This document shows positions 11,548 through 36,400 of a stretch of DNA of 64,000 bases, piece after piece. Made by a program: the position numbers and the translations under genes. Numbering within the stretch: position 1 is the stretch's first letter; every line of letters starts with the position of its first letter. A model generated the notes under the pieces. That model was not told the origin of the DNA, made no database searches, and was given only the letters and a program-made list of their open reading frames with translations. Source of the stretch: Phoronis australis (lineage: Eukaryota > Animalia > Phoronida); assembly GCA_002633005.1 (NCBI GenBank), contig NMRA01000006.1, positions 1,520,888 to 1,584,887 on the forward strand. The letters are read 5' to 3'.

Positions 11548-14500
11548 ATGGAGCTCAGGGTTGGCGGAAAGTTCCGTCTTGGTCGCAAGATTGGTAGCGG
11601 CTCATTTGGTGATATATACCTCGGTAAGTTCCTTTTTATTGTTATTGTTTTTATTTATTTATCCAAGATACGAGAATCCGGAAATGGCGTTTACAGTTTG
11701 CGATTCATTCAAAATCATTTCTTTTTCTTTCCTGTAATCAGAATTTCGGAAACCAAATAGCATTCTGTGGCAAATAGAGCAAGATTCAAATGAATTTCGG
11801 TTATTTGTTTATTTCTGTTCTCAATATTCACCAACCATTTTAACAAATCGCAAAATCAGTCAGTGACAAATGTGATGTTTCTGATAAAAAAAGTCCTGTG
11901 CGTTTTTCATACATGTAATTGAAGTCATGACAATAAAGCAATTTCCACATATAATTGTAGATTTTAACTGCTGAAAACAATAATAATTGGATAATAAGAA
12001 CCCTGGCATTAATTGTCTAAATGTGTGTCTCTGTGTTGTTGTGTCGGCTAACATTCTAACCCACTGATGACTGTATGCTGAGCTTTGGTTCTTACTCTTA
12101 GTCATACATTCTGCGCCTGTTACGCACTACTTCGCAATGTAGCATTGAAATTTAGCTAAAAGTAATGTTTCTCATTTGTTATTCCACAGTGTAGTGTGAC
12201 AGTGTTAATCTTATCTTTAGTGCTATGAATCATGGTAGCAGATCAATATGAGATGAGTTTTAGTCAGATTAAATATTGTTTCCTTTTTTGCTTGTCAATT
12301 TGGCGGCAATAAGAAATGCCATACCAGCGATTGAACTCCTTATTAGACATTGTGTAAATTCCCTGTCATCTTAATCAGCAAGAGTCTAAATTGGGTTGCA
12401 TAGGAAAAACTTTTCATCTCTTTGAAAATATGTTTTAAACTTAAGACGAGTTTCAAAAACTCTTACCAGGGCCGTCAATGCCTCAGTTTTGGGTCTGAAT
12501 ATCAACCTCATTGCTCTCTGAAGGAAATATTTACTTATTTGCTTTTAAAGTGCGTAAAATCACTGATGTCATCTTAAAAAACGTCGAAATTCAACCCCAC
12601 CAGTCTATCAGCTGTCAAATTGCACCCTCAAACACTATCTTACGATATGTTAATTTGCTGATCTCTGAGTTATGAGCATATATTGTTACGTAAAATTGGG
12701 ACAACCAATCACACCACTAGTCATCCTCCACTGCTTTGGTATGAAATTCCATTAGATAGTACTGTTCATTTTCCCGTGGTTCATGGAATAATAAAGAATG
12801 GAGAGACGGTGCGTTTTTGGTGGTTATGACAACTCTGTGTATATAGGCCCTTTCGTGCTGACTTTACTCCAGTATAAGCGCAGTGTCAACGTAAATTGTG
12901 AAGTTAATTGAATCGTTCATTCCGGTCTTGGTAGTCAACAGACATCGAAGTAAACGGTTGGTGACGTTGTCACCATCGAAGTTATCGCAAGATATTGCTC
13001 ATGCGTATGTGAAAACTTGAGAACATTTATGTGTGCTAATTGACATACGGTAAAACTTATTTACAATTCGATTGGTGATAATTCAAGCAAAGTATAAGCA
13101 ACTTTAATTGTTGATGATAGCAGTGGCCCCTGGTGGTAATTTCAATGAGACCACAGTTGACCGTAAATACCGTACAGCAGCGTCGACACTCCAATGTTAA
13201 GTCCACCTGGTTACTGTGAGGTTAACTGGTGCTGTTAACTTCGATACAGGACTGAAGTTGATCGTTCATACTGACCGCAACTCCCCAAAACATGGACGCG
13301 TCGAGGTTAGTATGAAAAGGCCTATGACAATGCTGTGCTGTGGCTTTTTTACTTTCCCTTGGAACATCAGAGAAGCACGGATATTGTGCATGGTGTACAA
13401 TAAACTCGTGTGTTGGTGGACATGACATTAGAGTTGGGTACATTCATACGACACGTTCATTTCTGTGGGGCTAGGAAACTCTCAAGTATAGTAATTTTTC
13501 TTCTGTTTTCTCATTATGTGGATATTGAATTCAGGATTGTGATGTGCAGTACTATAAAGGATGGTCTAATGATGCTGACAATGAAGTCACTTTTCAAAAC
13601 AATGTAAACTGTGGTTTTAAGCACTTATAGCAAAATTTGCTTCACCAGGCCCAGAAACTCCTCACTAATGATCAACGTTCTCCTCAAGATTAGACATTCC
13701 GTTAGTAAGTTTTATTAACGGCAAAACTCCGCACGTCTACGCCATGTGTCACAGCCTTGAGCTGGTGAACAGGATGTAGGTTAGTTTATTGCAGTCTGCA
13801 AATGTAGGGGCAGTTATGCAGTGTCGAGAAAGAATGGCAATCATGGGAGTCCTCGGTTCACAATTCAACTCCCCTGCTACTTAGGCGACACTACCAAGTG
13901 GTGTTCAAGGCATTGCTTTGAAATTACTTCAGAGAGCTCAGTTTTGGGGCTATTGATAGGCTGAAAACGAAGAGCGGGGTTGTAGTTAGGGTAAAATCGG
14001 CGGGGTATTTTCTCGTTGAAAATAATTTCCGTATCAGAAGAGATTGTCGTCCTTCCCTTCAGGTGAGCGAGGGCACTGCTTATTACCTTCAACTCTTAAT
14101 TATTCTATTCGTAACCTCATTGAAGCATGCTTATGCGAATTATGACAGATTTAANAAAACAATGTAAACTGTGGTTTTAAGCACTTATAGCAAAATTTGC
14201 TTCACCAGGCCCAGAAACTCCTCACTAATGATCAACGTTCTCCTCAAGATTTGACATTCCGTTAGTAAGTTTTATTAACGGCAAAACTCCGCACGTCTAC
14301 GCCATGTGCCACAGCCTCGAGCTGGTGAACAGGATGTAGGTCATTGCCTAGTTAGTTTATTGCAGTCTGCAAATGTAGGGGCAGTTATGCAGTGTCGAGA
14401 AATAATGGCAATCATGGGAGTCCTCGGTTCACACTTCAACTCCCCTGCTACTTAGGCGACACTACCAAGTGGTGTTCAAGGCATTGCTTTGAAATTACTT

Positions 14501-17500: not shown

Positions 17501-20500
17501 CCCAATCTGATTTTGCAGTCTAATCATGTAGCATGGTGGGTAATGGTCTGGTATAATAACTGCCCGAATTTTGAGAACCAGTTTTCTCCACTGAATCACT
17601 GGCATAAACTGGTTCTCAAAATACGGACACGTTATATCAGACTATTGCCACATGGTCAGTGCTGATGGTGACCATTTGCAGAAAAAAATGCTTACGTCTG
17701 ATACAAGTCTAAACTTTGGAGGAAGGTGCCTGGTCACAAGACCTGGGTAATGGTAGGACCTCGCTAAAATCTAGCCAAAATCTCGTGTTCTCGCGAGGTC
17801 CTGGGGTTACTAAACTCTACCCTGCAGTTGCCTTGATTGCTGTGCAGGCCTCGACATAGCAAGTACACACTCGAAAATACAAGTTGCAATTGTGAAATAA
17901 AAAGAAGCAGTGTCTCACGCATAGATTTTCACCAAATGCAAATTTGCGAGAATCCCAGAATTCCCAAGTCGCCTAACAAGATCTGAGGTCGCCGAAATTG
18001 ACATAATCGACCAAAAACTTTCATGCTGCACTCCGTTCTCAAAAATATGCGCATACCTCTTCCGTTTCCATTTCTCACGTGAAAAATATGCACCTTTAAA
18101 TTTCCAACTCAATTCCTCCTGCCAATGAAGAACACAAATGATCAGATACACTGGAGGTGCATGTTTCATGATCCAATCTTGATCGATTTTGGCTGAACAT
18201 GTCCGACTTCTGTCTGTTTACTTCCTGTTTTAATTTAAGCGCATGTTTATTGTGTGCTGGATTTGCAAAATAAATGGAACAACTGTGAACCAAAGGCATT
18301 GAATGTAGGAAAACTGTTAGTAATTTAAAGTTTGGAAGTTACCACAAATTTGGAGGGAAATATTGCCTCACTTTGATACTCGTGGCGGCTTCGGGGATTT
18401 TTCCCAGGTCGCTAAACACAATCTGAAGTTGCTTTGGTGACTTGTAGGTCGTCAAAGCGAGCACTGAAGCAAAAAATTGACCTCACTGTTTATGAGTGAA
18501 AATCTGGAGACACAGCGCCGAATACGTCCTCGCTCATATTTTCGAACGGTCATATTTTCGTGTGGGCATTTTTACCTGTGTCGAGCACTGCAGTGTGTAT
18601 GTTTGTTGTGGGGTCAGAAACGTGCAGAACTCGACCACTTGGTCCGCTTCACACCGCTTCTCCGTCTCTGGTAACGTTGCCTCTGGCTGTGGTGGGCTGC
18701 GCTAGCGTACTATACCTATCTCTCTCAAACAGGCACTAACATTTCCATGGGCGAAGAGGTGGCCATCAAGCTGGAGTGTGTCAAGACCAAACACCCGCAG
18801 TTACACATCGAGAGCAAGTTCTACAAGATGATGCAGGGCGGAGGTAGGTCGCGCTCTGTTTAACCCCTACCATTAACATACTCACCCGTGGCTGTGGCGG
18901 TAGATCATGACAGCCACACTGCCCTGTCCGCCTGTCTGCATCTGTCCGCCTGTCTTGTCTGTTCAGCGTCTCTTCGTTGGACATCGTCGGCATAGTGCTA
19001 ATGGCGTGCGCCTGTTGCAATTTCTCCCCAACTAGGTACGGAGGTCCCGACGGGGGAGGAGGTAGGCATCAAGCTAGAGTGCGCCAAAACGCACCACCCC
19101 CAGCTGCACATTGAGGCGCGCATGTACAAAATCCTGCACCCGGGTGGTAAGTCGATGACCGTCTGTAATTGTGAAGTGCTGTGTCCGCAACTGACTGTAT
19201 GTATGTCGCCAATGTGCAACTATCTGTATTTGCTGAGAATGAATGCGTGTGTGTGCTTGTCATCGACGAGGAGCTGACTGTTTGAGTATTGTTAGCCAAC
19301 CGTGACTGGTAAGGACTCTGAGCGTGCGTTTTCTGTGATCATGTGACCATGTTGTCCAGAACTGTGATGCTGAATTTGTTCATAAACTTGACTGCAGGGA
19401 ATGGATTGCCTGATGTTCTTGTAGTGTGTGCGTTTCTGAATTTGTTTCAGATTTTTGAAACTGAACAGTACATCTGCAGACATTGGCAACTGTTTTTGGG
19501 CTTGGGTAGGCACAAACCATCCTGGCTGATCTTTTGTAGGTAGCCACTCAACGGTGAACCTTGGTCTATTGTCTTAGTAAAGGAGGAGATCATTTATTAA
19601 CGATAACTGAAACCTGTTCACACAAGCACCTGAGGAGGTGCCTTTGTTTGTAGACCTGGCAGTGGCAACTTATAGGAAATCTATAAGTGTTTGGTTACAG
19701 CACACACATTTGTTTGGTACTGTATTGTTTACTGATATGTGGGCAGGATTCCCTCTAGGGTTTTCTCAGTCAGCTGCTGCTCCTGATGATGTGAATAACG
19801 GCAGTGCAGTTGCAGTTGACTCTATTGTTGGGATGGGTCTCTTATAGTGATTCAGACATCCTGTTTGCTCAAAGGAAATAAGAAATTTTATCCAAAATTT
19901 GAAATGAGGTGTATTTAGTCTATGCTCGACTCATAATACTTAAAAAATCCTTGTTTAATTCTTGAAAGAGTGTCTCATTTTTGAGTTTGATTATTTTCCG
20001 CAGTAGTTCACCAACATGAATGTGAAACCATCCAGATTGAGGAAATGCGCCCTTAGCGAGAGACCCTGATTCTCCGCAATACCGGAAATGGATGTAATTT
20101 AGATAATTGGACTTCATTTCTGGAATTAGAGGTTTTGAATGTAATTCAGGTACTCTAACTAACGTTACCATAATTGAATATTTTTTGTTTTTAATTACAA
20201 AAATTAAGAATCAAATTTTGCGATTCTGGCTACAAATCTATCAACGGTCATATTGCAGGGGACATGTTCAATTATTTTTGAAAATGGTGCTCCTCTTTTT
20301 CCAGTTTTGAGAATCAACAAACATGGTTTGCAGCAAGTTATCGATAAAGTGTACTCATGTTTATCACTTTGAAATGAAAAAGATTTTGCTAATTAACTGA
20401 ATTGGGAACTTGGAATTCTATGCTTGCTCACTGGATTTCTCTGTTAATGAAAATGGGCCTCTGATGAGTCTAACCTTGCAAGGTGTGATGCGATATCACC

Positions 20501-23500
20501 TAGAGTAGACTTTGATTAATGAAGAGTTTTTTGTTGCCACGTAACTAGGACGTTCTATGCCCTGTCTGCCTAATATTACTGCAAAAAGCAGTAATTAATC
20601 ACGGTAGATAAAAACTCCACCATTTACAAGCAAGCTGCGACAGAAAGCAGACACTGCTAAGGACACTATTGATTTCTGTTAGTTAGTTCACCCCGTGTCC
20701 ATGCATGTCATTCCAAAGGCTTTCATGCAGGGATTTTGCCAAGTCATTCTACTAACTGTTCTTGGGGTTAGGTTCAGTTGTGTAGGGGGGGTTCCTCAAC
20801 ATATTAGTTTAGTTGGTTGATGATTGGTAGACTGTTGATTCTATCAATGGTTTGCATTGGTGTGAGGTCATGTGGTGTGTTTGAAGATATCCTATCCACC
20901 AGCGAGGTTGGTACCGTTCAGTGATCGTGAGGAACAGGTAGGACAGCTCTGGCATTAAAGTGGTATCTGGTACAATATTCAGTTGAAAAATCAACAGATG
21001 GCTCTGATAATGAATTTACTTTCGAAACATAGATCAACCTAGGATGTTGCCCTTGCCTCCATGGTTGCCTTGACGACTGCCTGGGTGTGTTTTGTGTTGG
21101 TGTTTGTGTGTGTATGTGTTGGTGGTTCTTAAGGTGTGTGGTTGTGCAATCAATGTCATCTTACTGTCCATTGTTCAAACAAACTGACTTGATGTGTAAT
21201 TAAGGAGTGGCTTTTGAGACTGCCGCCAGACGTGCAGCAACCAAAGGGCAGCTTGCCCCAGATCAGCTGAGCATCAAAATACACAAATGAGTCACCGGTG
21301 CTGTGAGGGAAATGATGCGAGTCGATCTCCTGTGGATTAACTATATGAGCTGGGTGCACATGCACTTAGCTGACTGTTACATTCATAAATATGAAACGGA
21401 AAACTGCCATTTGTTGTTGCTGTTCTATTGCGAAACTATAATCGTGGAACGTGTTGTAAGTTGTATTGTTTAGCAAGTGGAGAAACTATGACCACTGCTT
21501 ATTCATTTAATGTCATGTTTTGGGGTAAAATCTCTCATTTTTGGATAAAATTTCCAAATTTACGCTTTTAGATTCTAACATTGTTGTGAATGCGCACAAT
21601 GTTTCAAAACGTCGTATCTGTGGTACAGTATTTGATCATGGAGATGCATTTAATTTGTTTCGTTTCATACTACATGTTTCATGAAAAAATGTTAAAAACA
21701 AAATTTCACTTGTCCCCATATTGTGTCCTAAATTGTAGAGAGTTTTCCATAGGTTACAAACTGCAGATTGCTGTAAAATTTTTACTTAATATCTCTGCTT
21801 TCATCATTGCTTGGGCTTTCTGTCCTGTGGTAAAGTAGTCACTGCTTGAACGGTAATTATCTCTTAGAACCGGTTTTCTACACTGAATAATTGGCATCGA
21901 ACTGGTTCTCAAAACCTGGGACCCCCTGTAAGTGACTGTAGCCATTCAGCCTATAATTTGAGCATTACTTTGAGGTGCTTGTTTTTTCACATTTGCGTCG
22001 AAACTTTTGTGTTTTTTTATTTTACCATTTTTGGCAATGGTGCTACAGGCTTTGTGTTCTTTTTACCATATCTGGGGGGTATACAAAAAGGACTCCTTAA
22101 AGGCGAAATCTTAAGACGTGTTTGGTTTATTTATGGACATTCAGAGGAAATTACTCAATTGTTAGACATCTTCGGAGACAACTGTTGTTAATTTATTCTC
22201 TTGATAAGAAAAGTTCGCCAGCGTGACATTATGATTTCTTTTCAGTGGGTATTCCCAGTATTAAGTGGAGCGGTACGGAGGGTGATTACAATGTGCTGGT
22301 CATGGAACTCCTCGGTCCGAGTCTAGAGGACCTATTCAACTTCTGTAATCGCAAGTTCAGCACAAAGACAGTATTGCTATTAGCCGACCAGCTAGTAAGT
22401 GGACAGTGCCAAGGACGTCGTTCTCACATACGGATGTATTGGGACTGAAATGATGCACTGGCGCACAGTTCAAGGGCCCTTTGAGCCCGCACTTAACATC
22501 ACAATGGGGGTGGGGTTGTGTTTGATTTGTTTGATTTTGGTTTAGGTTAAACTTTTTGTATAGAACAAAGACTCGACGCTACAATGTCTGTAACTGACAT
22601 TTTTTTATAAAAACATCAAGTTGGATTTACTTGGAAATCCTGAAGTGCTTTTTGCTAACATTTGTCCACAGCATTTCGGAGTCCAAAGAAAATACGTTTT
22701 CTGAGTCCTGCGTATCAAAATCATTAACAACCGCATTGAAATTAACTGTGCCAGTAGGCTGTTGCCTCGTTTCAGTCCCGGTGCGGGTGTATGTGTGCAC
22801 GCGTGCGTAGGTGGTTCCCAGTAGATGACCCATCTCTCTATCGCGTCTGTCTGTTGTTGGTTTCAGTCGGCATCCCCACCATCAAGTGGTGCGGGGCAGA
22901 GGGCGACTACAACGTGTTGGTCATGGAGCTACTCGGCCCCAGCATCGAGGATCTGTTCAACTTCTGCTCGCGCCGCTTCAGCCTGAAAACGGTGCTGCTG
23001 CTGGCCGACCAGCTAGTAAGTGCCCGCCCCGCGTACCCACCCCACCCTGCCCCCCTTCCCTGTCCCCTGGGGGGTAGTGTGCGGGGGTGGTGGGCGTGCT
23101 CTGCATGTTGTCACCGCGTGACTCGATGTTGTATGCATCCTCTCTCACCCACCACTTGACGGTTGTAGCCGGCAGTTACACAGGAACGTCCATCCTCTAG
23201 AAGCACCTATGGGTGCCTTTCGAGGAAAATTGTCATTGCTATTTTAAGAGGGCATTCACATGTAAATTTACCTTTTTTAACTGAAAAGTAACTATTTCTA
23301 TGAACACTGCTGTTAACTTGACCAATTGAGTTTCAGAAACGACAAAACAGTTTTCTTCACAAAACCCCCTTGTGCCACCACACATGGACTGCCAGACTAA
23401 ACCAAGTGTCTTGTGTGAAGTTAGGCTGTTGTGCTATAGCTTCTGCTGCCTTATCTGCCATTTTCACATCCACAACCGGTCATCAAAAAGGTCATTCGTT

Positions 23501-26500
23501 GTGGACGTCCTCATTATCTATGCTAGCACTTCCAGTCCTAGTTGTTGTTATCTCTGCTAGATGTTTGCCAACAACCCTGTGTGTGTTTGTGTGGATTTGA
23601 CTGATAGTTTGTTGATGACTTAACTTCATTGTCCCCCGCCACGCAGTCAAACGCGAAGGAGGGACATCGTATTCATGTCTGTATGATGCATTGTTTTTGA
23701 CTTTATATATTAAGAAGGTCAATTCTAATGTCCTTGATGTCATTTTCAAAGCTGTGAGAAATTTAGTTTTGATCTGAGGGATGCACCTGAGTGATATGTC
23801 AGGGTGGGAGGTTTCGATTTCGTTCATGTTGGCAAACTTGGCCTCATCTTCATGGTAGTAGCGAGTAATTTAAGAGTGGTCGTACATCTCAAGGAATCTG
23901 TTGACTGTGGAATTTAGGAGTTGGATTTAGAAAATGTTGGCCCGGCATCTTTAGAAGGTACAAGCTACCCAAACAATATAGCTCAGTCACCCAAGAACAT
24001 AGCTCGGCACTCATTAACACGACTCACTGACCGTTAAAGTCAGATCACTGGCTCCTGAAAAGCCTCACACAACACGACTTAGGCATCCAAATGGCATGGT
24101 TCATGTAACACAAACATGACCCAAGGACGAAATGTTCACTTTTTTGTTTTCCACTTTGCCATCTAGGGGCAATAAAAAGTACAATGTAGAAATCTCTAAA
24201 GACTATTCAGTTCTGTAGCAAAGTGCTACCTTTCCCCTGTCATTCTAGTCGCCAATCCGATGGTTACGCACACATCATGAATATTATTAATGTCCAACAG
24301 TTTTAAGCCCCTGTCCTATGAATACATTTGTTTAAACAGATTTTTTGTGTAACAAATGACTACTTGGCTTCACGTGATTTGGTATGCCTGAGCACTTTTT
24401 TTCAAGTGTATACAGACCGCCTTGTTGCTAATTGCTGCATTTGACAAGTGTTGCAGCAAGACTCTTATTGCCGTGGCCTGCCTATCTAGGTTAGTCGGTC
24501 CTCACAGTACACATAATCATTCTCATGTTTTGGACGTTTTGTCTCATGCAGCATGTGCTTTCCTTAGAATCAAATTTTGCTCCATGAACCACTTTCTCTC
24601 TCTTGTCCAGTTGTAGAGTACAGACAAGTTGAGTAAGCTGGCACTCATGGTACAGTCATTGCAATTCTGGAGCTTTCATATTAAGATAACTGAGCTGATG
24701 GTCGTTTTTCAAATGCATTGTATAGTGGTTGTCTGTTCGCAAATGTCCACTGACATCACTGAAAATTTGGAGACATGTAGAAACCAGGGTTGTATTTAGT
24801 AGGCGCAACAATTTAGCGAGTTAAGGTTGGATCAGATGACACGTGTCTTGAGAAACTTTTGCACAAAAAAATGCTGAAAGTCTGCGTATTCATCCAATGC
24901 TTCTGTAGCTTGTGTCAGTTTTATATTTTTATATGATTGTTGTTTTGTCATTTTCGCACCAAAAAGCAGTTGTGTTCCGGTGATTTCAGTTCTAGTGCAT
25001 ACAAGAGATAAGTGTTGTTTTTTGTCTTGCGGTTTAATACTCATCAAGTTTTCTGTGATGTCACCGAATGTTTCCAAGCCATCAGCCGTCTGATACTGCA
25101 TTTGAAAAACGACAGCAGACCGGAAATTCCCCAAATTAATGTACGTGTATGTTATCAAGTGCCAAATGTTTGCAAAAAGCAGTCTTGCTAATTGGTTTGC
25201 TAAAATGGCTAAATGATTTCAAATGTTTTAGCAAACTGGGCTGAAGCATTTAAAGGCTATCATGAGCCTACTTTGATACACTGTACAGAGAGCGACGATG
25301 GCTGGGGTTCATGAGGATCAAAGTGTGTTCTTAAGCATTAAAGTGCATGAGAACGTAAATACCCGCTGTAGCTCGTAAGGAACGAATTGTGCCCGTGAAA
25401 AAGAAAACCTTCGTGAGAACTTCCTTTCAGATTGTTTAGGGAGGACTGCTTACCTTGCTGTATATGCTGGCTTGTGTGTCACATTTAGTGTGTGAAACTA
25501 CTGTCTGTACCAGTTACATGTGTTGGTTTATTATCGAATGTGCTTTCTTATTCTTCTAGAGATTCGGTTACACAATGACAATAAAAAGTCAGTCCTAACA
25601 ATACCTGTTCTGCACAAGTAGAATGTTAGACTGTGCTTAAATCTTCTGTAGGGAGATCTTCAGTTTTTTTCAAGAAGCAAAAATGTTGCTTGCTCATTAA
25701 GTGAAGTTTGATATTTTGGGTGTTCCAAACGACACGCGTGTGCCTTATGTGCATTCGCCTTTGAGGGTGTACGTTCTCCCAGACTTTCCTGACTTTATAA
25801 GTGTCTGTTCACAAAACATGATAAAATGAAAAGTGCAATCTGTCCGCTCACAGTATCCCGATTTCGGTATTCAAATATGGAACCATCTGCTGACATTCCC
25901 TGACCAAGGATCATGCAAATCCCAGAATTTGTTACACTCACCAAATATATGAGCCAACACGCATTGTCAATACGTTTGTCATCGTCCACTTCAGGGAAAC
26001 TAACCCGCCAGATACTGATCTGCTTACAGTTCCAAGAGGGTCTTTTCGAGACCAACCTTGTTGCATTATCACGACACCTGGTGGTTTACTTTGCTTACTT
26101 TCTGTGTAGATAAGTCGAATAGAATACATCCACTCCAAAAACTTCATCCACCGTGACGTCAAGCCAGACAACTTCCTAATGGGCCTGGGCAAGAAGGGCA
26201 ATCTGGTGTATATCATTGACTTTGGCCTAGCCAAGAAGTACCGGGACGCGCGCACCCACCAGCACATCCCCTACAGAGAAAACAAGAATCTCACGGGCAC
26301 GGCCCGCTACGCCAGCATCAACACACATCTGGGTATAGGTGAGTTGAGAAACGACCTCGTTGACGGGAGAGAACGCATGGCGAGTGGATTTGGGGTTGTG
26401 GTTTCAGAAATCCGAAGGCCGGAGAAAGTTTTGCACAGCCTTTGAAGCCTTGGTTCATTATCACACAGTCCACGTAAGAACTAGTTCTCATCAAGGCTCT

Positions 26501-29326
26501 CTGTAGACTACCGTGCCTTAAAGTTCAGTCGGATCTTGGCTTTGCCTGGACATAGTTTTGCAGTTGATCTCAGTATTTCCAACAAGTATGATTTTGCCGT
26601 TTTAGAATACAATTTTTGTCCAACTTGTATTGAGTTTTCTTATTGTTTTTACAAGGACTTTAAGATTTTCACTGTTGAAAGAGTTGCATTCACTGCAGTT
26701 CTGTGTCCACATCTGGTCGTGTAACTGTCACCGTTTCATTCCCGCTGTAGAACAAAGTCGGCGAGATGACATGGAGTCGCTGGGCTACGTCTTCATGTAC
26801 TTCCTGAAGGGTAGTCTGCCTTGGCAGGGCCTTAAGGCGGCCACCAAGAGACAGAAATACGAAAGGATCAGCGAAAAGAAAATGTCCACACAGATAGAGG
26901 ACTTGTGCAAGGGCTTTCCCAGTGAGTATTATTGTCGTAGGAGGTGGTAGTGACAAAAATTAATGCGCGACACCTTCTGGGAGGGCCTGTTTATTAAAGG
27001 CTTTATGGCCTTGACTAGTTTGGCTTACTTGGTTCTTGTTAGAAAATCCAGTTTGAAGTATTGGGAGATTTGGCAGCTGTTTAGCAAATTACAATATGTT
27101 TGCTTTTAGTAACAATTCGGTGCATTTATTGCAAGAACACACAAACTGCCCATGGTATGGACATAGGTATTCGAACACGTACATGAAATTTATGTTCCCG
27201 TCTTGCTTGAATTTTCTATTTTGGAGAGCATTGGTTATGAATTTTTTTCAGTGCGTGTATGTAGTTTTGAAGTGCAGGTTTGGAATTTGTACTGCAAATT
27301 TGGCGTTTGCTAGATTAGTGGATCCAAGCGGGAAATTTTGAGGCATGGAGTCATTTCCACCTCAGAATTTGGTTTGTGGTGTTGTCATTAGTGTAATGCT
27401 GTTGAAGAGCCAAAACAATGGGGTCCATTTCAAAATTGTAGCTTTTAAAAATGATGCTGCGTTAATGACCACAGTATGATACAACCATCTTAGTAACTGT
27501 GCATTTAAACTTTATTAATAAAATGGGTTCTTGAAGTTAACAAAGTCCTCATGGTTTTAGCATAACATCCATTTCAGTACGAGCACACTTGTGGGTATAA
27601 CATAATAACACTAAACGAATGTGAATTACGTATAAGAGACATTGAACCAAGAGTTTTATGCCAAGTCAATTTTTAAAAAATCCGGTAACTCAGCACCATC
27701 TGTACTGATACAGAGCTGTCAGGTCTGTGTTGAATGGTTACATGTTGATTGTGTGTTACGGCAGTCTGAAACGAGGCACAAGTTTTCTCATTCGCATGTA
27801 AAATAGAAGACAGAATAAGAATTATAAGTGATGACTTGCTCTGCTTCATGTAAATTGTCTTGCATTCAGATGTTCCGGGTGGTTCGTTATTTGTTTTTGC
27901 ATGCATGTAATCTTTGCCCGCTGATAGATTCGTTGTCTTTTTGTACGATATCGTAATATCTGATTATAAGTTGTTACTAAAACTTTGTCCCTGTGGCATT
28001 TGCAGCCGAGTGTTCGACCTACCTGAACTTCTGCCGGTCGCTACGCTTTGACGACAAACCCGACTATTCCTACTTGAGGCAGCTCTTCAGAAACTTGTTC
28101 CACCGCCATGGATTTACCTACGACTACATTTTCGACTGGAACCTGCTCAAATTTGTAAGCAGCACCCTTTGATAAGTTCCCCGTCGCATGGTCCCTCCCT
28201 CTCTTTCTCTTTATTAATGTTGTTTTCCGTTGTTGGATTTTACGTGGATTGTTGTTTATGCCCTCTGTAGGAATGAAGTCCGCAGTGATTTGTTACTACA
28301 CCAAAGTCTTCAAAGAATTTGACATTGAATGTGTGGATTTTTTCACTTTCTCACAATAGAATTTCTGTAATGCTAATGAGCATCACAAGCTGCGTTCAGT
28401 GGTGCACCCCATAATATCCAGTATGTATTACTAAAATAAGTCCCTTCCTTGTTACTTGGTATGAGCTTGAATTCTTTCTTATTGTTTTCCTTGACGTGCA
28501 GTCAAAGATGTGGTGACAGTAATTGGGTCTTAGGTCAGGCTATTAGGGTCAGGTCAATTTTTCAGCCTTAACTGATTCAGACCCTTGCCTGTCTTCCCAG
28601 ATAATTAAAAGGCTGATGCTCAAACTCCGTATGTGCTACAGTACATGCCAAAAGTAATCAGGGAAAATACAATTTCCCCGTTATGATGGGTCAGTATCTG
28701 CCATGTCAGGTCATGCTATTTATTCACTTCGAAGGTGAATTTCACTTGCGCTCGGTCACCTTGATGGGGAAATCCACCTGCGCTCAGTCGCCATGACAGA
28801 GAGTTCCGGGTCATTTTGTCTGATTTTTCATGGCGTGAACTGTACCTCACAAATGCTTGCTTGTTAATTTTCTGCCTGCCTAGTCCCTTACGTAATCTGT
28901 TCAGTGCCCAAATACTTTTCACTTATGCCTGTTGAATGTTGTATGGGTGTTCAGATCCCTGATGTGGAGATAGAGCCATTGGCGTTAAGCTTCACAAGTT
29001 ATGTTGTAATGTTTCATGGTGTTTAGCCTCTGTTGTACTGTGCTGCATGTTGCTGTCGCTAGAGCATGTTCACCCTCCTTGCGGTGGCTTTTGACCATCT
29101 CGACCCCTGTCCCCTAGGGGGGTCTGTCTGCATGCCCGGCCCCGTTCTAGTGCTGTGTCTGTCTCTCTCGTTTGCAGGGCGGTCCGGGTTCGCGTGCGGC
29201 ACATGAAGACCGTTGCAAAGACCAGCTGAGAACACCGGTAAACCATCTGCGTGTTGAGTCACATCGTTTGCCAACGTCCGACTAAACTAATCACCATCCC
29301 CTAGCTTGGGTTGGCCGCCATGTTTC

Positions 29327-29358
<32 letters not shown>

Positions 29359-30709
29359 GAAGGGTGCCTGGGTGTCTGGACTAACTAGCATTTTTAACCT
29401 GCTTTAGGTTGTGATGTATCAGTCGAAAGATTTGGTTGAGGTTGAGAAATAATCGGAATGTTAACGTGTGCTTGTGTCCAAAGAGCTTCTGTTGAGAGTT
29501 ACCGTTCAACATTGTACTAGCAGTATTTAATCCCTTCTACGAGCTAACGTGTATTTGCATGTTGTGAACCTGTTGTTCTTTGCCTATGATATGTCGACCT
29601 TGTCTACAATGACAAAAATTCCATAAACGCTCGACTAGTTATTCATGTTCTATATGCACCTTATCGAAATTTTGGCCGTGCGTCACTCTTTGACTTTGTC
29701 CAGTGTTTTGCATGCTGATGTCATTTTTGTCTATGCTATTTTATCTGTGTACGCGTTTACCCGAGTACTGAGTTCGGTTGCCTTATAGGTTTGCGTATTA
29801 CGCACTCCTGCTTACGAATTGTGCACTCAGTGTCAATTCCTTTGTTTATGTAATGTATAAAAAGTTGCTACTGTTCTTTTAAAAATCTTTTTTAGATCGA
29901 ATTTCCCAGTTCATTTAGCCTCTGAAAATTCGTATGAGATTTGAAAATGAAGACCTACTGTATAAATAAAACAATTTTATCCAGCAGTGAGCCAACGCAG
30001 ATACTTCAGTAAAACCTGTGCTCACCTTAAAATTCATGGTGTACTTTAACGGAGCAAAAGTGTTTTAGTTATGATTTGATGCAACTCCCCATGGTAGTGA
30101 AAGTCTGTGCTTCTGAGACATTGGTGTGGAATTTGTCCATGCTGGTGACAGGGGTAGCGATAGTAGTTTCTTGTAGAGACTGATGGAAGTTTTACGTTCC
30201 ATTTGTTGATTGCAGGGTGGCACTGGTGCTGATGATCGTACGCGTCACCACATCCACAGCTCAACGACGCGCGCCGTCCAGGGGACGAGTACGGGCCGGA
30301 TACGCAGCTCCGACCATGCTGCTGGTGCTACAGCTAGTCCATCGGCCGACTACGGAGGTAGGTCGGGCGTCACTGCTGCAGGGAGTCCTGGTCATCTTGT
30401 GGGGGGATCCTGAGTTGCCCGTGTGGGCATTACTGACCGTAGTGAATATTGAGACGGGCATGGGTAAAAATAGTGTTATGATTACGTGAAACTGCTTGAA
30501 TTTTGCAGTTTTGTTTTTGGTTATGGATTTTGGTTTAGTTATTTTACATATCATTTTTCTAAGAATTCTCTAACTAATTTATCTTTTGAATTGTGGTATT
30601 GAATTTTCTTAAATTATTTTTCAATAAGTAATTTAATTGCAGTCACTTTGAACAATTTCTATTCAGTTGTGGCTATCCGTGGTGCTTGTATTCTTATGTG
30701 TCTGTGCAT

Positions 30710-30741
<32 letters not shown>

Positions 30742-33474
30742 GCTGTCATTGCTGTAGAATAGGCGTGTGTTAAGCTTACCCTGATGCACTCTATGCAAAC
30801 TATGGGCTTCACTGAAACTCTCTAGTCTATGCATCCAAAAGGTCTCCAAAGATCCTTCACTGCCTCTTTCTGCTAGTGCCTCTCCAGCTTCTCTTGAAAT
30901 AATTCACCATCACTGTGAATTGAAAAGGGAGCCTTGTAATCCACTGTTCTCATTCACGTAATGTTGAATGTCGATACATAATCCAAGATATTCTGTAAAC
31001 GTGTTGGCGCATGTGTTAGTGACCTACTTAATGGTGAGTTTTGTCTTCCTCCTCCTACTTTGACGAGGTTGTAGCGGTTTGACTGATTTCAGATGTCAAG
31101 TTGTTCAGAAGGCATGTGGCTGGCACCTTCTATGTTGTTTGTTCTTAGAAGCACCCCTGGTGTCGGCATGAGCATCTTTGGAGACTTGCACTGCTCTATT
31201 TTTCCTTTCACCTTTATCTCGCTCTATCTCTCTCTCTCTCTGTGCCACCCGTAGACCCTGGCCCTGATCGAGTGCTTGTGCGGCCACAGACTCTGGAGCC
31301 GGCAGCCCTCCTTGCCGACCGGCCCCTAACCAGGTCACAGTCCAAAGACAAAGGCGGTGGTCTGACCCGACAGGCAGACTTGCGACCTTCTGGTCGCACA
31401 GCCAGTGCTCAGCCCAGACTGTCTGCCAATATGCACGGTCTACAGCCGGGCTCTTCAACAAAGAAGCGCAAGGAATCTGATGATTCGCGTCTACGTAGTG
31501 GGTCCTCTCGAAAGTCTGCACTTTCAAGGCCAAAGATGACAAATAACTAGCAGCGCCATCTGTTGTGAAGGAATTATCATTTTGGTTTTGGGACACTTGG
31601 TTCTGTTGTAAAAGGGTTGTCCTCATCACCTCCATTGTTGTAACGGGTCAAGATATAACTATATGAATCATGATTTTGAGTTTGTTGAACATCAAATCCA
31701 GTAATGTCTGGTGTTAGCCAGCTCTGTTGTACTCAATTTCCTAACACCTCAGTTTTTAGTAATGTGTAAATACTGTGTGCATATCCGTTTTATTTATTAT
31801 ATTTCTCAATAATTTCTATCAATTTGGAAGTGATCTGTATTGTTCCGTTTTTATTGTTTGTGGCCGTTACTATCCACAAGTGCTGTGTATCTGCTGGGCT
31901 GAATAAACAAGATGAGTCCAAGAGTAACAGTGCACTTGTTTATGTTGAGTACACTAGGAAATGGAGGTTGTCTCAGTCAGAATTTTTTTACAATTGCATT
32001 TATTTCATTATCGTTCATGTTGTTCTCTTGAACTGTATCCGTGTACATAATAATATTCCTACAGAGTTCAGGCGTCAGGAGTTCACTGTGGTTCACTGTG
32101 AAATGTGTTTGTAACCACTCCAAGTTTTTGTATGAAACGAACTTTGTCATAGTCTGTGTTGTTATCTGTTTCGTTTGTGTTTAATGTTTGCCACTGTTCA
32201 ACTTATTTGTTGCCTTTGAACCACTACTGTAGAAAGTGTGAACTTTCATAAACGCTGATTTGATGAATTTGATGAAGCAGTTTTCAACAGCTGCTGTTAC
32301 GTATGGCATGAAGACTCCCTCACTATTGACTTAAGTGACAAAACGAGTTGGTACCAAGACATAAAAACTTTGTTATCAGACTCTATACACTATGGATGTT
32401 AATCACATCTCGAAACGTTAGGCCGGATTTTCTAAATCCATTTGCTAGACATTGCGAGCAGGGTATGTCGAAATATCCAATACTTAGTCCATGGGTGTTT
32501 TACGTAGATTCGAGACACTCGCGTGCTTCACTTGCAATAAGTGGCGACATCTTTTGACGACTTGCGTTTTTGCAAGTTTCTTTTGTCTGCGAAATACAGC
32601 CGTTATCACAGCTGATTGGCCAGTGTATTTTTATGTTCATAGATGATTGGTGAGATTATATATATATATTTATATGCGAATCTGACCACTAAATGGTTTC
32701 ATTACCTGTTGCCAACAGCCAAGCCTTGGGTTGCTGACACTACTTTGTTGAGGCTGGCGCATGATCACTGTACTAACATTGTTCGTAGTTTTCGTTGAGT
32801 AACCCTAACCTACCACCTTAGACTTTGTTCTGATAGTAACTGTAAACGTGTTCTCTGCTCTGTTCTGTGGTGTTGGCTTAACCTTATTTCTACCCCCAAT
32901 GACTCAGTGGTGCAAGAAATGGTGACCTCACCTTCTCATGACAGTGAGTAGTGATGAACGACTCTGGGTCACAATTTAATGAGAACTGTTCTCTCGTAAA
33001 AAAGACGGGTTTCAACTGTCTTTGTGAAATTTTAAATTCACTTTACTTTCTGTTAGTAGTATTTTGAAGGAGAGGGGTAATTTTTCTTTATTTTGGTTTG
33101 CTGGATTTCCAATTGGGTTTCTGTTACTTGGGTTTGCTGACAGTTTGCTTCACTGGAATTCCCTTTTATCGCGATGGTATGGGCTAGTGCCCTGTCCACC
33201 ACGTGGTCTTCATGTCTTGCTAACCACCGAGTCGTGGGTTCTGTGTCGTCTGCACTACTAATGCATGCTTTGTTAACCTCGTTCTACAGCCGCTCCCTCA
33301 CCTAGTCGTCCAATCTCTCGTGCAGAACGCGAGCGGCGGATCAGCCAACGGCTGCACCGTGGCCAGCCACCTCTGATGACTAACCCGGAGCTGGCGCGTG
33401 AAGGCACGCGGCTGTCAAGCATGGGCCCGCCGGCGTCCAATACCCGCAAGACCAGCGCTAGCGCTCGGAGGTGA
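11548..33474 (+). CDS. CSNK1D/E: Casein kinase 1 delta/epsilon (doubletime-like), multi-exon with alternative exons
   Basis: Exons 11548-11623 ([25 protein letters not shown]), 18733-18843 or 19036-19146, 22246-22394 or 22867-23015, 26110-26338 ([27 protein letters not shown]), 26751-26921, 28006-28154 (FDWNLLKF), [29178-29237], 30216-30357, then 31255-31550 or 33290-33474. All GT-AG and phase-consistent; exon sizes 76/111/149/229/171/149 match the vertebrate CK1d/e layout as I recall it. Confidence 0.96.
13596..14725. repeat. ~560-nt direct duplication joined by a single N (likely haplotype/assembly overlap)
   Basis: 13596-14154 and 14156-14725 are near-identical (a few SNPs, one 11-nt indel), with N at 14155. 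Confidence 0.85.
17908..18466. mobile_element. Non-autonomous DNA element remnant (hAT-like ends)
   Basis: Ends cagtgtctcacgc ... gcgagcactg with subterminal gtcgc(c)taa..atctga repeats; no clean target-site duplication. Confidence 0.35.
18733..18843 (+). CDS. CSNK1D/E: CK1 alternative exon 2A (canonical)
   Basis: aaacag|GC...GGA G|gtaggt; 111 nt, phase 1-1; (G)[36 protein letters not shown]. Confidence 0.93.
19036..19146 (+). CDS. CSNK1D/E: CK1 alternative exon 2B (divergent duplicate)
   Basis: Branch-like tgctaat, then ttctccccaactag|GT...GGT G|gtaagt; 111 nt, phase 1-1, no stops; (G)[36 protein letters not shown]. Confidence 0.88.
22246..22394 (+). CDS. CSNK1D/E: CK1 alternative exon 3A
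   Basis: tttcag|TG...CTA|gtaagt; 149 nt, phase 1-0; (V)[49 protein letters not shown]. Confidence 0.92.
22867..23015 (+). CDS. CSNK1D/E: CK1 alternative exon 3B
   Basis: tttcag|TC...CTA|gtaagt; 149 nt, phase 1-0; (V)[49 protein letters not shown]. Confidence 0.92.
29178..29237 (+). CDS. CSNK1D/E: Candidate 60-nt cassette exon in CK1 tail
   Basis: Long pyrimidine tract, tttgcag|GGC...CCG|gtaaac; phase 0-0; [20 protein letters not shown]. Confidence 0.55.
29328..29357. repeat. (CTG)n microsatellite
   Basis: About 10 perfect CTG units, roughly 90 nt downstream of the candidate cassette exon. Confidence 0.9.
30216..30357 (+). CDS. CSNK1D/E: CK1 C-terminal tail exon
   Basis: ttgcag|GGT...GGA G|gtaggt; 142 nt, phase 0-1; [47 protein letters not shown]. 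Confidence 0.75.
30710..30742. repeat. (TTG)n microsatellite
   Basis: About 11 TTG units. Confidence 0.9.
31255..31550 (+). CDS. CSNK1D/E: CK1 alternative terminal exon T1 (novel tail)
   Basis: (CT)n tract then cccgtag|AC; phase-1 open frame of about 98 codons (D)[11 protein letters not shown]...[32 protein letters not shown] (part of ORF 31242-31550). Confidence 0.65.
33290..33474 (+). CDS. CSNK1D/E: CK1 terminal exon T2 (conserved tail)
   Basis: ctaat branch, ttctacag|CC; phase 1; (A)[27 protein letters not shown]...SASARR*, resembling the vertebrate CK1d/e tail motif [21 protein letters not shown]. Confidence 0.85.
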
Positions 33475-36400
33475 ACAAATACTGTCGTGGTCGTGTGTAC
33501 CATTGAGGTTGTGTACAGATGTGACTGCCAGTGCTCGCAATAGGAGTCGGACTGTCGGCTGTGCATTAGATGTGCATAGAATGTGCAGTTGTTGGTAAAT
33601 GCATCGGAATGTGAACTGTTCATCAGTGTAGCATTTTTGAAATGACTGTAAATATATAGGCCACAGACTTATGTGTGAACAGTTCACATTTCTTGACTCG
33701 TGAGACTGCTATGAATTTCATACTGTTTTGATTTTATCACTTGTAAGAAGGTCTGGTACAGGCTGCGAGCTCTAGGTGAACTGCTTGTACTGTAAGTGTG
33801 AGTGGACTTCTTTGCAGGATGACTGTACACGGACTGAACATACATCAAGGATAATATGATTGGCCAATTACATGGCAGACTTTGCTGTTGGGCATTTGCT
33901 TGGTGATCATGGCCAACTGTTCAATGCACACTTATATATGCATCTCATTCATGACAATCTGGTGGATAGGTGTTTGAAATGTCCAACTGCACTGTTTGCA
34001 TAAATACTAAGTCTAAAAGACCATTGCCTTTAGCTCGGAACTGGGACCGGAATCAGCATTCTAGTCTTGAGCTAGTAGATTAGCAAGAGCTAGTAGACTA
34101 GCAAGATCTAGTATATAAAATCCGTTGGTAATTCCGGGAAGTGTTGGTTTCGAAACTTTTTCACTGCTGAAGGCATCTCGTAAATATGTCTCTGTTATAG
34201 GAATCTTATGTCTGTAATAGTGTCGCTGAATGTGTGTGTATATATATTGCTCCGTGGGTGAAAGTTGTGTGCAATAGAGGGTTTACTAACAGTGTAATTC
34301 TTGCGTTTAAAAGGTCAAGCTCATGCTGAGGTCGCGCGTTGGAATTCTTTTAACATTGTTCTTTATGTGGTCTTTGAGGGAGCCACAGCCATGTTATGTG
34401 TATTATAACGTTCTTTTCTGTGCTTTTATTGAATTGCAAGACTTGTAAATAATAGGCCAGGGAGGAGTCAAAATATCTGTTGAGTGAGAAGTGGGATGGG
34501 AGCATTTTAATGCTTAAAAGCTCTAGTCACGAGAGCATGCTTCTTGGGTACATAGTCATGGTTATGTCAGAACAGTCATGGGCAATAGTCACTTACAGGG
34601 GTACCGGTTTTTGACAACCAGTTTGAGGCCCGTTATTCAGTGGGAAAACTGGTTCTCAAATTGGCGGGACCCCTGTTACTATTACCAAGCTGTGGGGGGA
34701 AGTTCGTGATCAAGAACACTTTTAGAATGTACACGCTCTGGACTTATGAGATAAACCTCAGCCTATCGTTGTATGTTATGCGCTCAATACGGAATTGAAA
34801 AATATGTGTACCTTTTGTGAGGGAGTAGTTATGAAAGTGATGACGTTTTCAAAACGTTCTTTAATACACCTTGGTGAGTCGACCAATCTCATATTTTGAC
34901 GTAAGTGTAGTTTCCTGTGGGGTAAGTGGATCAACCATGCACAGTCCTGTTAATTATAACGTTGGAATGGTTTTGCCTGGTATCTATATGCTGTACAGTG
35001 TTAAAATCTTTTAGTTGCTATGTTGGTCAATTTGTTCGCTGATTCGACTGTGTAATATTTTGTTGTTTAGCTCCGTCTTATTAGTGTATATACCTATTTT
35101 GTGCTATCTGTCTATCTATATATAAATTTATTGTTGATAATTTGATCTCATGTGACTGGCTTTATTGAACGTCGTACTAGTGATGTTTGAGAAAATCGCA
35201 AATTTTAACCGCAAACCAAACGCTACAGAAATCGACTACCTTTTTGCTATGAATGTAGAGGCAAATCTTCGGCAAACTTGGTGAATTTGTGTCTTGACAC
35301 AACCCAGTCTTCGCATCCTGTAGGCTTGCTTCCATGTTGGTTATCAGTATCGTGAAAATCGGTGCTCTGTATTTCGATAATGGCAAAACTAACGTCACTG
35401 CTCACCTACGCACACTGAGGTGGGCCCTATCTTCAGCGAAGTGTTGCAATCAGACGAGTGTATGAATTTTTGCTTTGTTTTATTGTGTTCGGAATGGCGA
35501 TTTCCAAATATAAACTATTCTAGACACGTTTTAGATAGTCTGATGTTCATGGCTGCCGTCGTTGTGTGTCTGCTCTCATGAATAGATGCAAAAATCAATC
35601 TGTGGGGTTTCAGGGTCGCGCTTACTGAACGAAACTCGGGCGCGTGCATAATGGCCGATTATTTTATATTAAATATGGGCGTGTCCAGTGGGAGAATTTT
35701 TCACATTTGCCTTCAACTCATGGTTACCTTCTTCAATGTTAATTAGTCGTGTTGGTCGGTCTAGCCATAGATTATAGCGAGATGCGCACGTTCGCCTCGT
35801 TCAGCATTGTCACGTGGGAAATGCTTTTTGTTCCAGATAGTGACTGATGTATCCGCGATTGGCGTTATTCTAGCACGTCCATTTTGCGGAAGACGGGCGA
35901 TTAGGTCCTTGATTTTTTTACATGCACTTTGGTGGTTGAAGGTAATGTTCAGTGCCGGATTACTCGTAGCTTGGGCACCGCCTCCTCAGTCGTACTGTCC
36001 CGTCTTGCAAAACGTAACACTATGTTGGGTAAACATGATAACGACCGCAGGGTGTTTGACTGAGAGCCTTGAAATTGTGGGTCCTGGGAGGGGTGAACTT
36101 TTTGGTTTACCGTCGAGGGCTATTTTGAAGCGACGGGGTGTGACATTTTGACGACTGGGAGTTGGCTCCACACCCCTAGGTAGCGCTAGTGTGTTTAATT
36201 AACCAGAACTAAAAAGCATTACGGGACACATAGTATGGGCGTAGGGAAGCGGAAGTCAGCGGGCACATGTCCCAAAATTAAGTCAACACTTCTGCGAGCA
36301 AATGTTATGCTATACGTTCTTACCCTGCCAGACTGTGCTTATCATTAGTAATTTCCAACCTTGCACATTTTTATTGCCCTGGCGTTAAGAACTTTGTGGG

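What the first reader, a model, noticed from the sequence alone, without database searches (positions are those of the whole stretch)
18733..23015. CK1 delta/epsilon has two consecutive pairs of duplicated kinase-core exons: a 2x2 mutually exclusive exon switch
Seen: exon 2 exists twice (111 nt each, phase 1-1) and exon 3 exists twice (149 nt each, phase 1-0). All four have canonical splice sites and open frames. The copies differ at many synonymous sites while key residues are kept (beta3 Lys, HPQL, helix-C Glu, gatekeeper Met), and the flanking introns are unrelated, so this is old duplication under selection and not an assembly echo. Established: these exons encode the ATP-anchoring Lys38, helix C, gatekeeper Met82 and hinge of CK1, and include positions of known clock-period mutations (T44, H46, P47, M80). 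Inference: one gene could make up to four distinct catalytic N-lobes, playing the role of vertebrate CK1 paralogues. Including both 3A and 3B frameshifts (149 nt), consistent with exclusivity. Alternative splicing of doubletime is reported in some insects, so homology of these particular pairs needs checking.
Basis: partly seen in the sequence, partly recalled or inferred. Interest (0 to 1): 0.9.

Follow-up and report, generated by a model that had tools for sequence, protein, structure and literature searches.

The report
Swappable catalytic exons in casein kinase
An invertebrate casein kinase 1 delta/epsilon gene carries two old duplicated exon pairs in its catalytic region, RNA reads show all four exons being spliced with usage that differs sharply between samples, and competing RNA stems are predicted to pick one exon of the second pair, so one gene likely makes several versions of a clock and Wnt kinase.

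Summary
Confirmed. Exons 2A/2B (111 nt) and 3A/3B (149 nt) are intact old duplicates: synonymous sites saturated, pN 0.25 and 0.10, flanks unrelated. RNA-seq of the species (three raw-read runs) shows E1-2B (19 reads), 2B-3A (22), 2A-3A (3, undercounted), 3A-E4 (162) and 3B-E4 (5, one run); no 3A-3B joint was listed. 2B is about 1-8% of transcripts in two runs and about 40-60% in the third (P 6e-7). 3B is minor and its upstream partner was not seen, so the full 2x2 is unproven. New here: an element just after 3A has two competing partners, before and after 3B, and a second element pairs with 3B or 3A; the exon-2 pair has no such stems. The cited catalytic and clock-allele residues are identical in the copies (position 80 is Leu in both); 2B differs at 14 neighbouring residues. 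A Mya arenaria gene model also has exon 2 twice; 0 of 80 metagenome loci had a duplicate. A new member of a known kind.

The parts
11548..11623 (+). First coding exon (E1; ATG to phase-1 donor; an acceptor AG lies just before the ATG, so a non-coding exon probably lies upstream)
   Evidence: its 3' end is the loose-end consensus at the 2B acceptor
18733..18843 (+). Exon 2A, consensus-like copy (CK1delta residues 26-62: beta3 Lys38, HPQL, helix C)
   Evidence: mean 84% identity to 70 distinct homologous peptides; 3 reads join it to 3A
19001..19001 (+). Predicted branch adenosine for 2B (CTAAT), 157 nt from the 2A donor
   Evidence: motif match only
19036..19146 (+). Exon 2B, derived copy (14 substitutions, incl. 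A36G, V42A, K45H, S53A, K54R, F55M, M58I, M59L, Q60H, G61P)
   Evidence: E1-2B 3/5/11 reads and 2B-3A 6/1/15 reads
22246..22394 (+). Exon 3A (residues 63-112: gatekeeper Met82, hinge), major form in the three runs
   Evidence: 3A-E4 74/67/21 reads
22415..22470 (+). Element D, 20 nt after the 3A donor; predicted to pair with P1 or P2
22744..22804 (+). Element P1, ends 24 nt before the predicted 3B branch point (22828); D:P1 stem closes the 3A-3B intron
   Evidence: score 61, dG -63.6, 0 of 300 shuffles; intron fold z -4.3, 0 of 100; top stem of the gene
22867..23015 (+). Exon 3B (7 substitutions against 3A), minor form
   Evidence: 3B-E4 5 reads in run X3
23117..23163 (+). Element E, a degenerate inverted copy of the 5' third of exon 3; predicted to pair with 3B (22878-22925) or, more weakly, 3A (22261-22304)
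   Evidence: scores 48 and 37.5, its top two partners in the window; 3B x downstream 1 of 300 shuffles
24968..25000 (+). Element P2 in the 3B-E4 intron; D:P2 stem would loop out 3B
   Evidence: score 45, dG -37; 2 of 1000 shuffled D and 0 of 177 other intronic 56-mers reach it
26110..26338 (+). Exon 4 (HRD, DFG), single copy
   Evidence: its 5' part is the loose-end consensus after 3A and 3B
26751..26921 (+). Exon 5, single copy
28006..28154 (+). Exon 6, end of kinase domain, single copy

Best explanation
This CK1 delta/epsilon gene holds two old tandem exon duplications in the N-lobe and hinge, all four copies are spliced in RNA-seq with sample-dependent use of 2B, and each pair is likely mutually exclusive, the exon-3 choice being predicted to rest on competing RNA stems. 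Shown: intact copies under purifying selection; junctions E1-2B, 2B-3A, 2A-3A, 3A-E4, 3B-E4; a several-fold shift in 2B use between runs. Inferred for exon 3: D:P1 folds first and leaves 44 unpaired nt between the 3A donor and the 3B branch point, too close for 3A-3B joining, while E masks 3B, so 3A is the default; D:P2 later loops 3B out altogether; 3B is used when E pairs with 3A instead; any 3A+3B leak has a premature stop and would be cleared by nonsense-mediated decay. Inferred for exon 2: no frame, steric or stem lock was found, so a tissue- or stage-specific splicing factor probably turns 2B on and 2A off. Inferred for the protein: all variants keep the catalytic residues, and 2B would tune the beta3-helix C region (nucleotide pocket roof, helix C packing, partner surface) rather than switch activity off.
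For: Sequence and selection. Junctions: (3 stranded raw-read runs, 18-19% of each read). Shift: 2B-3A against exon 3-E4 is 15 vs 26 in X3 and 7 vs 141 in X1+X2, Fisher P 6e-7. No 3A-3B joint listed against 162 3A-E4 reads. E1-2B (19) and 2B-3A (22) are balanced and all listed loose ends at the 2B acceptor agree with E1. Stems; six control pairs at constitutive exons gave z between -0.9 and 0.7. The most stable nested state (D:P1 plus E:3B) predicts 3A as default, which matches the reads. Threshold of under 50 nt for steric interference: PMC5740500 passage.
Against: 2A depth and E1-2A were not measured, and the tool drops human-like reads silently, so 2A and maybe 3B are undercounted and 2A-2B joining cannot be excluded (E1-2B fraction 19/41, 95% CI 0.31-0.63). 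3B depth (2-7) is within the intron background (0-10) and its junction was listed in one run only; no acceptor-side junction of 3B was listed. The stems rest on one genome, with no covariation; D:P2 (43-45) and E:3A (37.5) lie in the range of unrelated pairs gene-wide (one search lists several at 40-44), E:3A may only reflect 3A-3B homology, and 2 of 270 window tiles outscore D:P1. 0 of 80 metagenome loci hold a duplicate.
Confidence: 0.7

Rival explanations
1. Only the exon-2 pair is a working switch; 3B is a silenced spare, wrapped in RNA stems and included only as low-level leak, so the gene makes two kinases, not four.
For: 3B depth is at intron background and 3B-E4 was listed in one of three runs; E is an inverted copy that masks 3B; no upstream junction of 3B listed.
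Against: 3B keeps frame, splice sites and GC3 0.90 with pS 0.80 against pN 0.10; 5 of 26 exon 3-E4 reads in X3 use it; at C71 and L102 it, not 3A, has the common state (31 and 23 of 33 homologous peptides); its reads may be filtered.
Confidence: 0.15
2. Exclusivity of exon 3 comes from frameshift plus nonsense-mediated decay and ordinary splice-site competition; the predicted stems are by-products of small inverted duplications or repeats.
For: 3A+3B gives a stop in 3B; E looks like an inverted exon fragment; repeat-derived hairpins of similar score exist in the gene (17539-17649).
Against: D sits 20 nt from a donor and P1 24 nt from a branch point, D's two best partners in 64 kb flank 3B, and D matched no repeat in the scans made.
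Confidence: 0.3
3. 2B is a cassette added beside 2A (in-frame 37-residue insertion) or encodes an impaired kinase that lowers CK1 activity in some tissue.
For: 2A+2B is in frame; no steric or stem lock; 2B has states seen in none of 70 homologous peptides at 7 of its 14 differing sites (E28, P30, A42, H45, M55, H60, P61); the Mya model joins both copies.
Against: 19 reads join E1 straight to 2B; K38, HPQL and E52 are kept; pN is far below pS; two copies of beta3-helix C are unlikely to fit one N-lobe (established kinase anatomy); the Mya join may be an annotation merge.
Confidence: 0.1
4. Assembly or haplotype artefact.
For: Such artefacts exist: a sturgeon model has two identical exon-2 peptides (P0144).
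Against: Copies differ at 40 of 111 and 40 of 149 nt with unrelated flanks; reads join 2B to 3A over the genomic intron and intronic reads cover the stretch.
Confidence: 0.01

Closest known systems
FYN kinase tandem duplicated exons (FynB/FynT)
   Same: Homologous mutually exclusive exons covering part of the kinase N-lobe and ATP site, with tissue-specific use (PMC9741552, passages).
   Different: One pair in a tyrosine kinase; here two adjacent pairs in a CK1, covering beta3, helix C, gatekeeper and hinge.
Human ATE1 exons 7a/7b
   Same: One element with two competing partners (R3 with R1 or R4) plus a long-range stem (PMC7797038, abstract and passages).
   Different: Proven by compensatory mutation; there the stems hide 3' splice sites, whereas D lies after the first donor and E pairs with the exon body; here prediction only.
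Dscam exon 17 and insect docking-site/selector clusters
   Same: Steric hindrance combined with RNA structure (title seen only in reference lists; paper not held); competing pairs, and downstream docking sites in 14-3-3zeta, Mhc, MRP1 (PMC6071210, passages).
   Different: Those elements are conserved across species; no selector for P2 was found after 3B.
Spliced forms of insect doubletime and mammalian CK1delta1/delta2
   Same: Same kinase family diversified by splicing (PMC9794997, 12 of 15 passages).
   Different: The passages seen describe variation in the C-terminal tail and 5' untranslated exons, not duplicated kinase-core exons.
Mya arenaria KC1D-like gene model WAQ97154.1 (P0001)
   Same: Exon-2 peptide twice in tandem, the second with Gly36 as in 2B.
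   Different: Its copies differ at only 3 residues, exon 3 occurs once in the model, and its DNA could not be read; shared origin is open.

Membership tests
CK1 delta/epsilon kinases | Kinase-domain sequence closest to CK1delta/epsilon | tested here: met
   Best solved-structure hits of 2B and 3A are CK1delta/epsilon, above CK1alpha; exons 4-6 are 95% identical to the nearest row
Tandem-duplicated mutually exclusive exon pair | Homologous neighbours of equal length and phase with canonical splice sites and open frames | tested here: met
Tandem-duplicated mutually exclusive exon pair | Both copies under purifying selection | tested here: met
   pS 0.78/0.80 against pN 0.25/0.10 between copies; no per-copy rates in relatives
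Tandem-duplicated mutually exclusive exon pair | Each copy spliced to both flanks | tested here: inconclusive
   Both sides seen for 2B and 3A; 3' side only for 2A and 3B
Tandem-duplicated mutually exclusive exon pair | Copies not joined to each other | tested here: inconclusive
   No 3A-3B joint listed against 162 3A-E4 reads (listing needs 3 reads; decay and read filtering could hide it); 2A-2B would be undercounted
Competing-RNA-structure (docking/selector) control | One element with two mutually exclusive partners, exon-3 pair | tested here: met
   D with P1 or P2; E with 3B or 3A; prediction only
Competing-RNA-structure (docking/selector) control | One element with two mutually exclusive partners, exon-2 pair | tested here: not met
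   7 local and 4 long-range region pairs gave z of 0.9 or less; exon 2B x downstream intron z 2.0, 5 of 100; fold z 0.33
Competing-RNA-structure (docking/selector) control | Conservation with compensatory changes; rescue by compensatory mutation | not testable with these tools
   No related genome with the duplicate was reachable
Steric-interference exclusivity | Donor to branch point under about 50 nt | tested here: inconclusive
   Linear distances 157 and 433 nt fail; 44 unpaired nt if D:P1 forms; branch points are motif guesses

The most novel reading that the evidence does not exclude
One CK1 delta/epsilon gene builds four N-lobes with different substrate or inhibitor preferences, switching them by tissue through two coupled RNA stem modules (one using an antisense copy of the exon itself as docking element), and the Gly36 exon-2 copy is an ancient lophotrochozoan duplicate kept in a bivalve and in this animal and left as the sole copy in bryozoans.
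Probability: 0.2. Interest if true: 0.78.

Novelty: new member of a known kind. Interest (0 to 1): 0.55.

Why it matters
CK1 delta/epsilon sets clock period and acts in Wnt signalling, and its known splice regulation in the passages read concerns the tail. Natural, expressed alternatives of the beta3-helix C and hinge segments sit beside the short-period alleles T44A, H46R and P47S (PMC7012598, passage) and give a ready set of variants for asking how the N-lobe sets substrate choice. The exon-3 cluster is a compact minigene candidate for competing-structure splicing outside insects and mammals. The splicing device itself is well known, which caps the score.

Tried and rejected
No genome is held for the window, so other CK1 genes of this animal were not examined. 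No indexed RNA holder was listed (no evidence either way); the contig run X4 gave one 162-nt intronic piece. Whole-region duplex folding timed out and was replaced by a local stem score. A stem first noted around 2A (18593-18613/18865-18885) is chance (52 of 300 shuffles). Metagenome scan: 0 of 80 loci with a second exon 2 or 3; 12 intron-bearing animal-type loci, some from the same organism, span E1 to E4 with single copies (counted by eye); 80 of 573 relatives were kept. Search of 50% representatives with 2B: no close 2B relative, best single-stretch identity 72%; the one two-stretch CK1 hit has identical copies and a contamination flag, so it was rejected. Kinase tree did not resolve the lineage. 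The exon-2 tree groups 2B with Mya's second copy and bryozoan-type exons at 94/81, but on 36 columns, with a long branch, an unsettled bootstrap and 40 of about 70 peptides: a lead only. Literature: searches found no report of duplicated CK1 kinase-core exons; two searches found nothing on residue 55; M80I was not found and is recalled. The library lacks most subscription papers, and supplements (for example Figures S2-S7 of PMC9794997) were not opened and may bear on novelty. Earlier notes: none on this gene.
Full report
Observation. The window holds one CK1 gene on the + strand: E1 11548-11623, E4 26110-26338, E5 26751-26921, E6 28006-28154 and tail exons to 33475. Between E1 and E4 lie 2A 18733-18843, 2B 19036-19146, 3A 22246-22394 and 3B 22867-23015, with ag/gt ends, equal lengths and phases, and open frames. 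The copies are 71/111 and 109/149 nt identical, synonymous sites are saturated (pS 0.78, 0.80), replacement divergence is low (pN 0.25, 0.10) and the flanks are unrelated (16-20 of 50). No third copy is in the window. The best solved-structure matches are CK1delta and epsilon.

Expression. Three stranded raw-read runs of the same species label (18-19% of each read) and one contig run were laid on 18860-23209. E1, 2A and E4 lie outside that stretch and appear only as loose ends. Reads in X1/X2/X3: E1-2B 3/5/11; 2B-3A 6/1/15 (GT..AG); 2A-3A listed in X2 only (3, median overhang 19 nt); 3A-E4 74/67/21; 3B-E4 listed in X3 only (5). One loose-end row was not shown. Rows need 3 reads. No 3A-3B, 2B-3B, 2A-3B, 2A-2B or E1-3A row was listed. 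The tool drops human-like reads without notice, which would explain why so few 2A junctions appear; 2A as the major form is therefore inferred by subtraction. 2B amounts to 4-8%, 1-7% and 42-58% of exon 3-E4 reads in the three runs (P 6e-7 for X3 against X1+X2; different junction types are compared, three samples of one study, conditions unknown). If the choices were independent, 3.6 reads of 2B-3B were expected in X3, so their absence says little (P 0.31). 3A+3B stops at aa 151; 2A+2B is in frame.

Protein differences (CK1delta numbering). K38, T44, H46, P47, E52, M82, E83 and L85 are the same in both copies; position 80 is Leu in both. 2A to 2B: N28E, I29V, S30P, M31T, A36G, V42A, K45H, S53A, K54R, F55M, M58I, M59L, Q60H, G61P. 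3A to 3B: S67T, S71C, T73A, L89I, N97S, K99R, T102L. 2A is near consensus (mean 84% to 70 distinct peptides) and 2B is derived (62%); 3A and 3B are about equally far (88%, 87% to 33). K45 lies among the short-period alleles T44A, H46R, P47S, which map to the N-lobe above anion site 2 and alter PER2 site preference (PMC7012598, passages). That Ala36 roofs the adenine and that residue 55 separates delta (Ile) from epsilon (Phe) in inhibitor selectivity is recalled; two searches found no paper.

Mechanism of choice. Of 23 region pairs scored against dinucleotide shuffles, two stand out: D (22415-22470) with P1 (22744-22804), z 9.9, 0 of 300, and exon 3B with its downstream intron, z 6.1, 1 of 300; a third (before 3A with 3A) reached 3 of 300; six controls were null. 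The 3A-3B intron folds at z -4.3 and the 3B region at z -2.9. A long-range scan found a second partner of D, P2 at 24968-25000; P1 and P2 are D's two best partners in the window, 2 of 1000 shuffled D and 0 of 177 other intronic pieces reach the P2 score. Element E (23117-23163) is a degenerate inverted copy of the exon-3 start whose two best partners are 3B and 3A. With D:P1 closed, 20+24 = 44 unpaired nt separate the 3A donor from the predicted 3B branch point, under the 50-nt limit cited in PMC5740500 (passage). Three nested states follow by inference: D:P1+E:3B (3B masked, most stable), D:P2+E:3B (3B looped out), D:P1+E:3A (3A masked). Against this: one genome, no covariation; gene-wide D:P1 ranks first and E:3B fourth of 42 pairs, but D:P2 and E:3A fall among unrelated pairs; 2 of 270 window tiles outscore D:P1. 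For 2A/2B no stem beat shuffles clearly and the branch point is 157 nt from the 2A donor, so protein-factor control is inferred by exclusion.

Relatives. A Mya arenaria model has exon 2 twice, differing at three residues, the second with Gly36. Bryozoan-type single exons share V29, G36 and L59 with 2B (L025 spans E1-E4 with one copy). A 36-column tree groups these at 94/81, which is weak; plant and algal CK1 peptides also show G36 or I58-L59, so convergence is plausible. 0 of 80 metagenome loci carry a duplicate; the intron positions themselves are shared by many of them. No second exon 3 like this one was found in any animal protein except longer multi-exon repeats (P0006, P0007).

Known and new. 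It works like FYN's duplicated N-lobe exons (PMC9741552, passages) and, for exon 3, like ATE1 or Dscam exon 17 (PMC7797038, abstract and passages; the Dscam paper seen by title only). The doubletime survey describes tail splicing in the passages seen (PMC9794997); the Hemiptera preprint showed nothing on it (passages); PMC9741552 and PMC5740500 do not name CSNK1 in the main text. Seven searches (listings only) found no report of duplicated CK1 kinase-core exons; supplements were not opened. Verdict: real, expressed and regulated; a new member of a known kind; interest 0.55.

Noticed in passing
window 29178-29237, 30216-30357, 31255-31550, 33290-33475: The C-terminal tail also looks alternatively spliced: a 60-nt in-frame cassette, a 142-nt exon, and two candidate last exons of the same phase, the second with an [13 protein letters not shown] motif like other CK1 tails. 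No reads were laid here.
   Followed up: partly
window 21860-21935, 17574-17621, 5468-5510, 49765-49830: A short dispersed repeat; reads from the opposite strand match 21882-21914 with loose ends on both sides, so they come from a copy elsewhere. The copy at 17539-17649 forms a strong hairpin.
   Followed up: partly
window 50245-50412: Exon of an acyl-CoA dehydrogenase (PF02771), by recall isovaleryl-CoA dehydrogenase, downstream on the + strand.
   Followed up: partly
window 13699-14500: Direct repeats about 560-570 nt apart with palindromic cores (13699/14259, 13896/14467) around the N at 14155; may be a local tandem repeat or an assembly overlap.
   Followed up: no
window 40100-41700, 47673-48400, 49561-50030: A repeat at about 1470-nt spacing (40145/41616) and strong inverted repeats near 47.7 and 49.6 kb, probably mobile elements.
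   Followed up: no
L023, L027-L033, L037, L038: In these animal loci the bases after exon 3 read acggt rather than gt, so the exon-3 donor seems shifted by one codon against the other loci.
   Followed up: no
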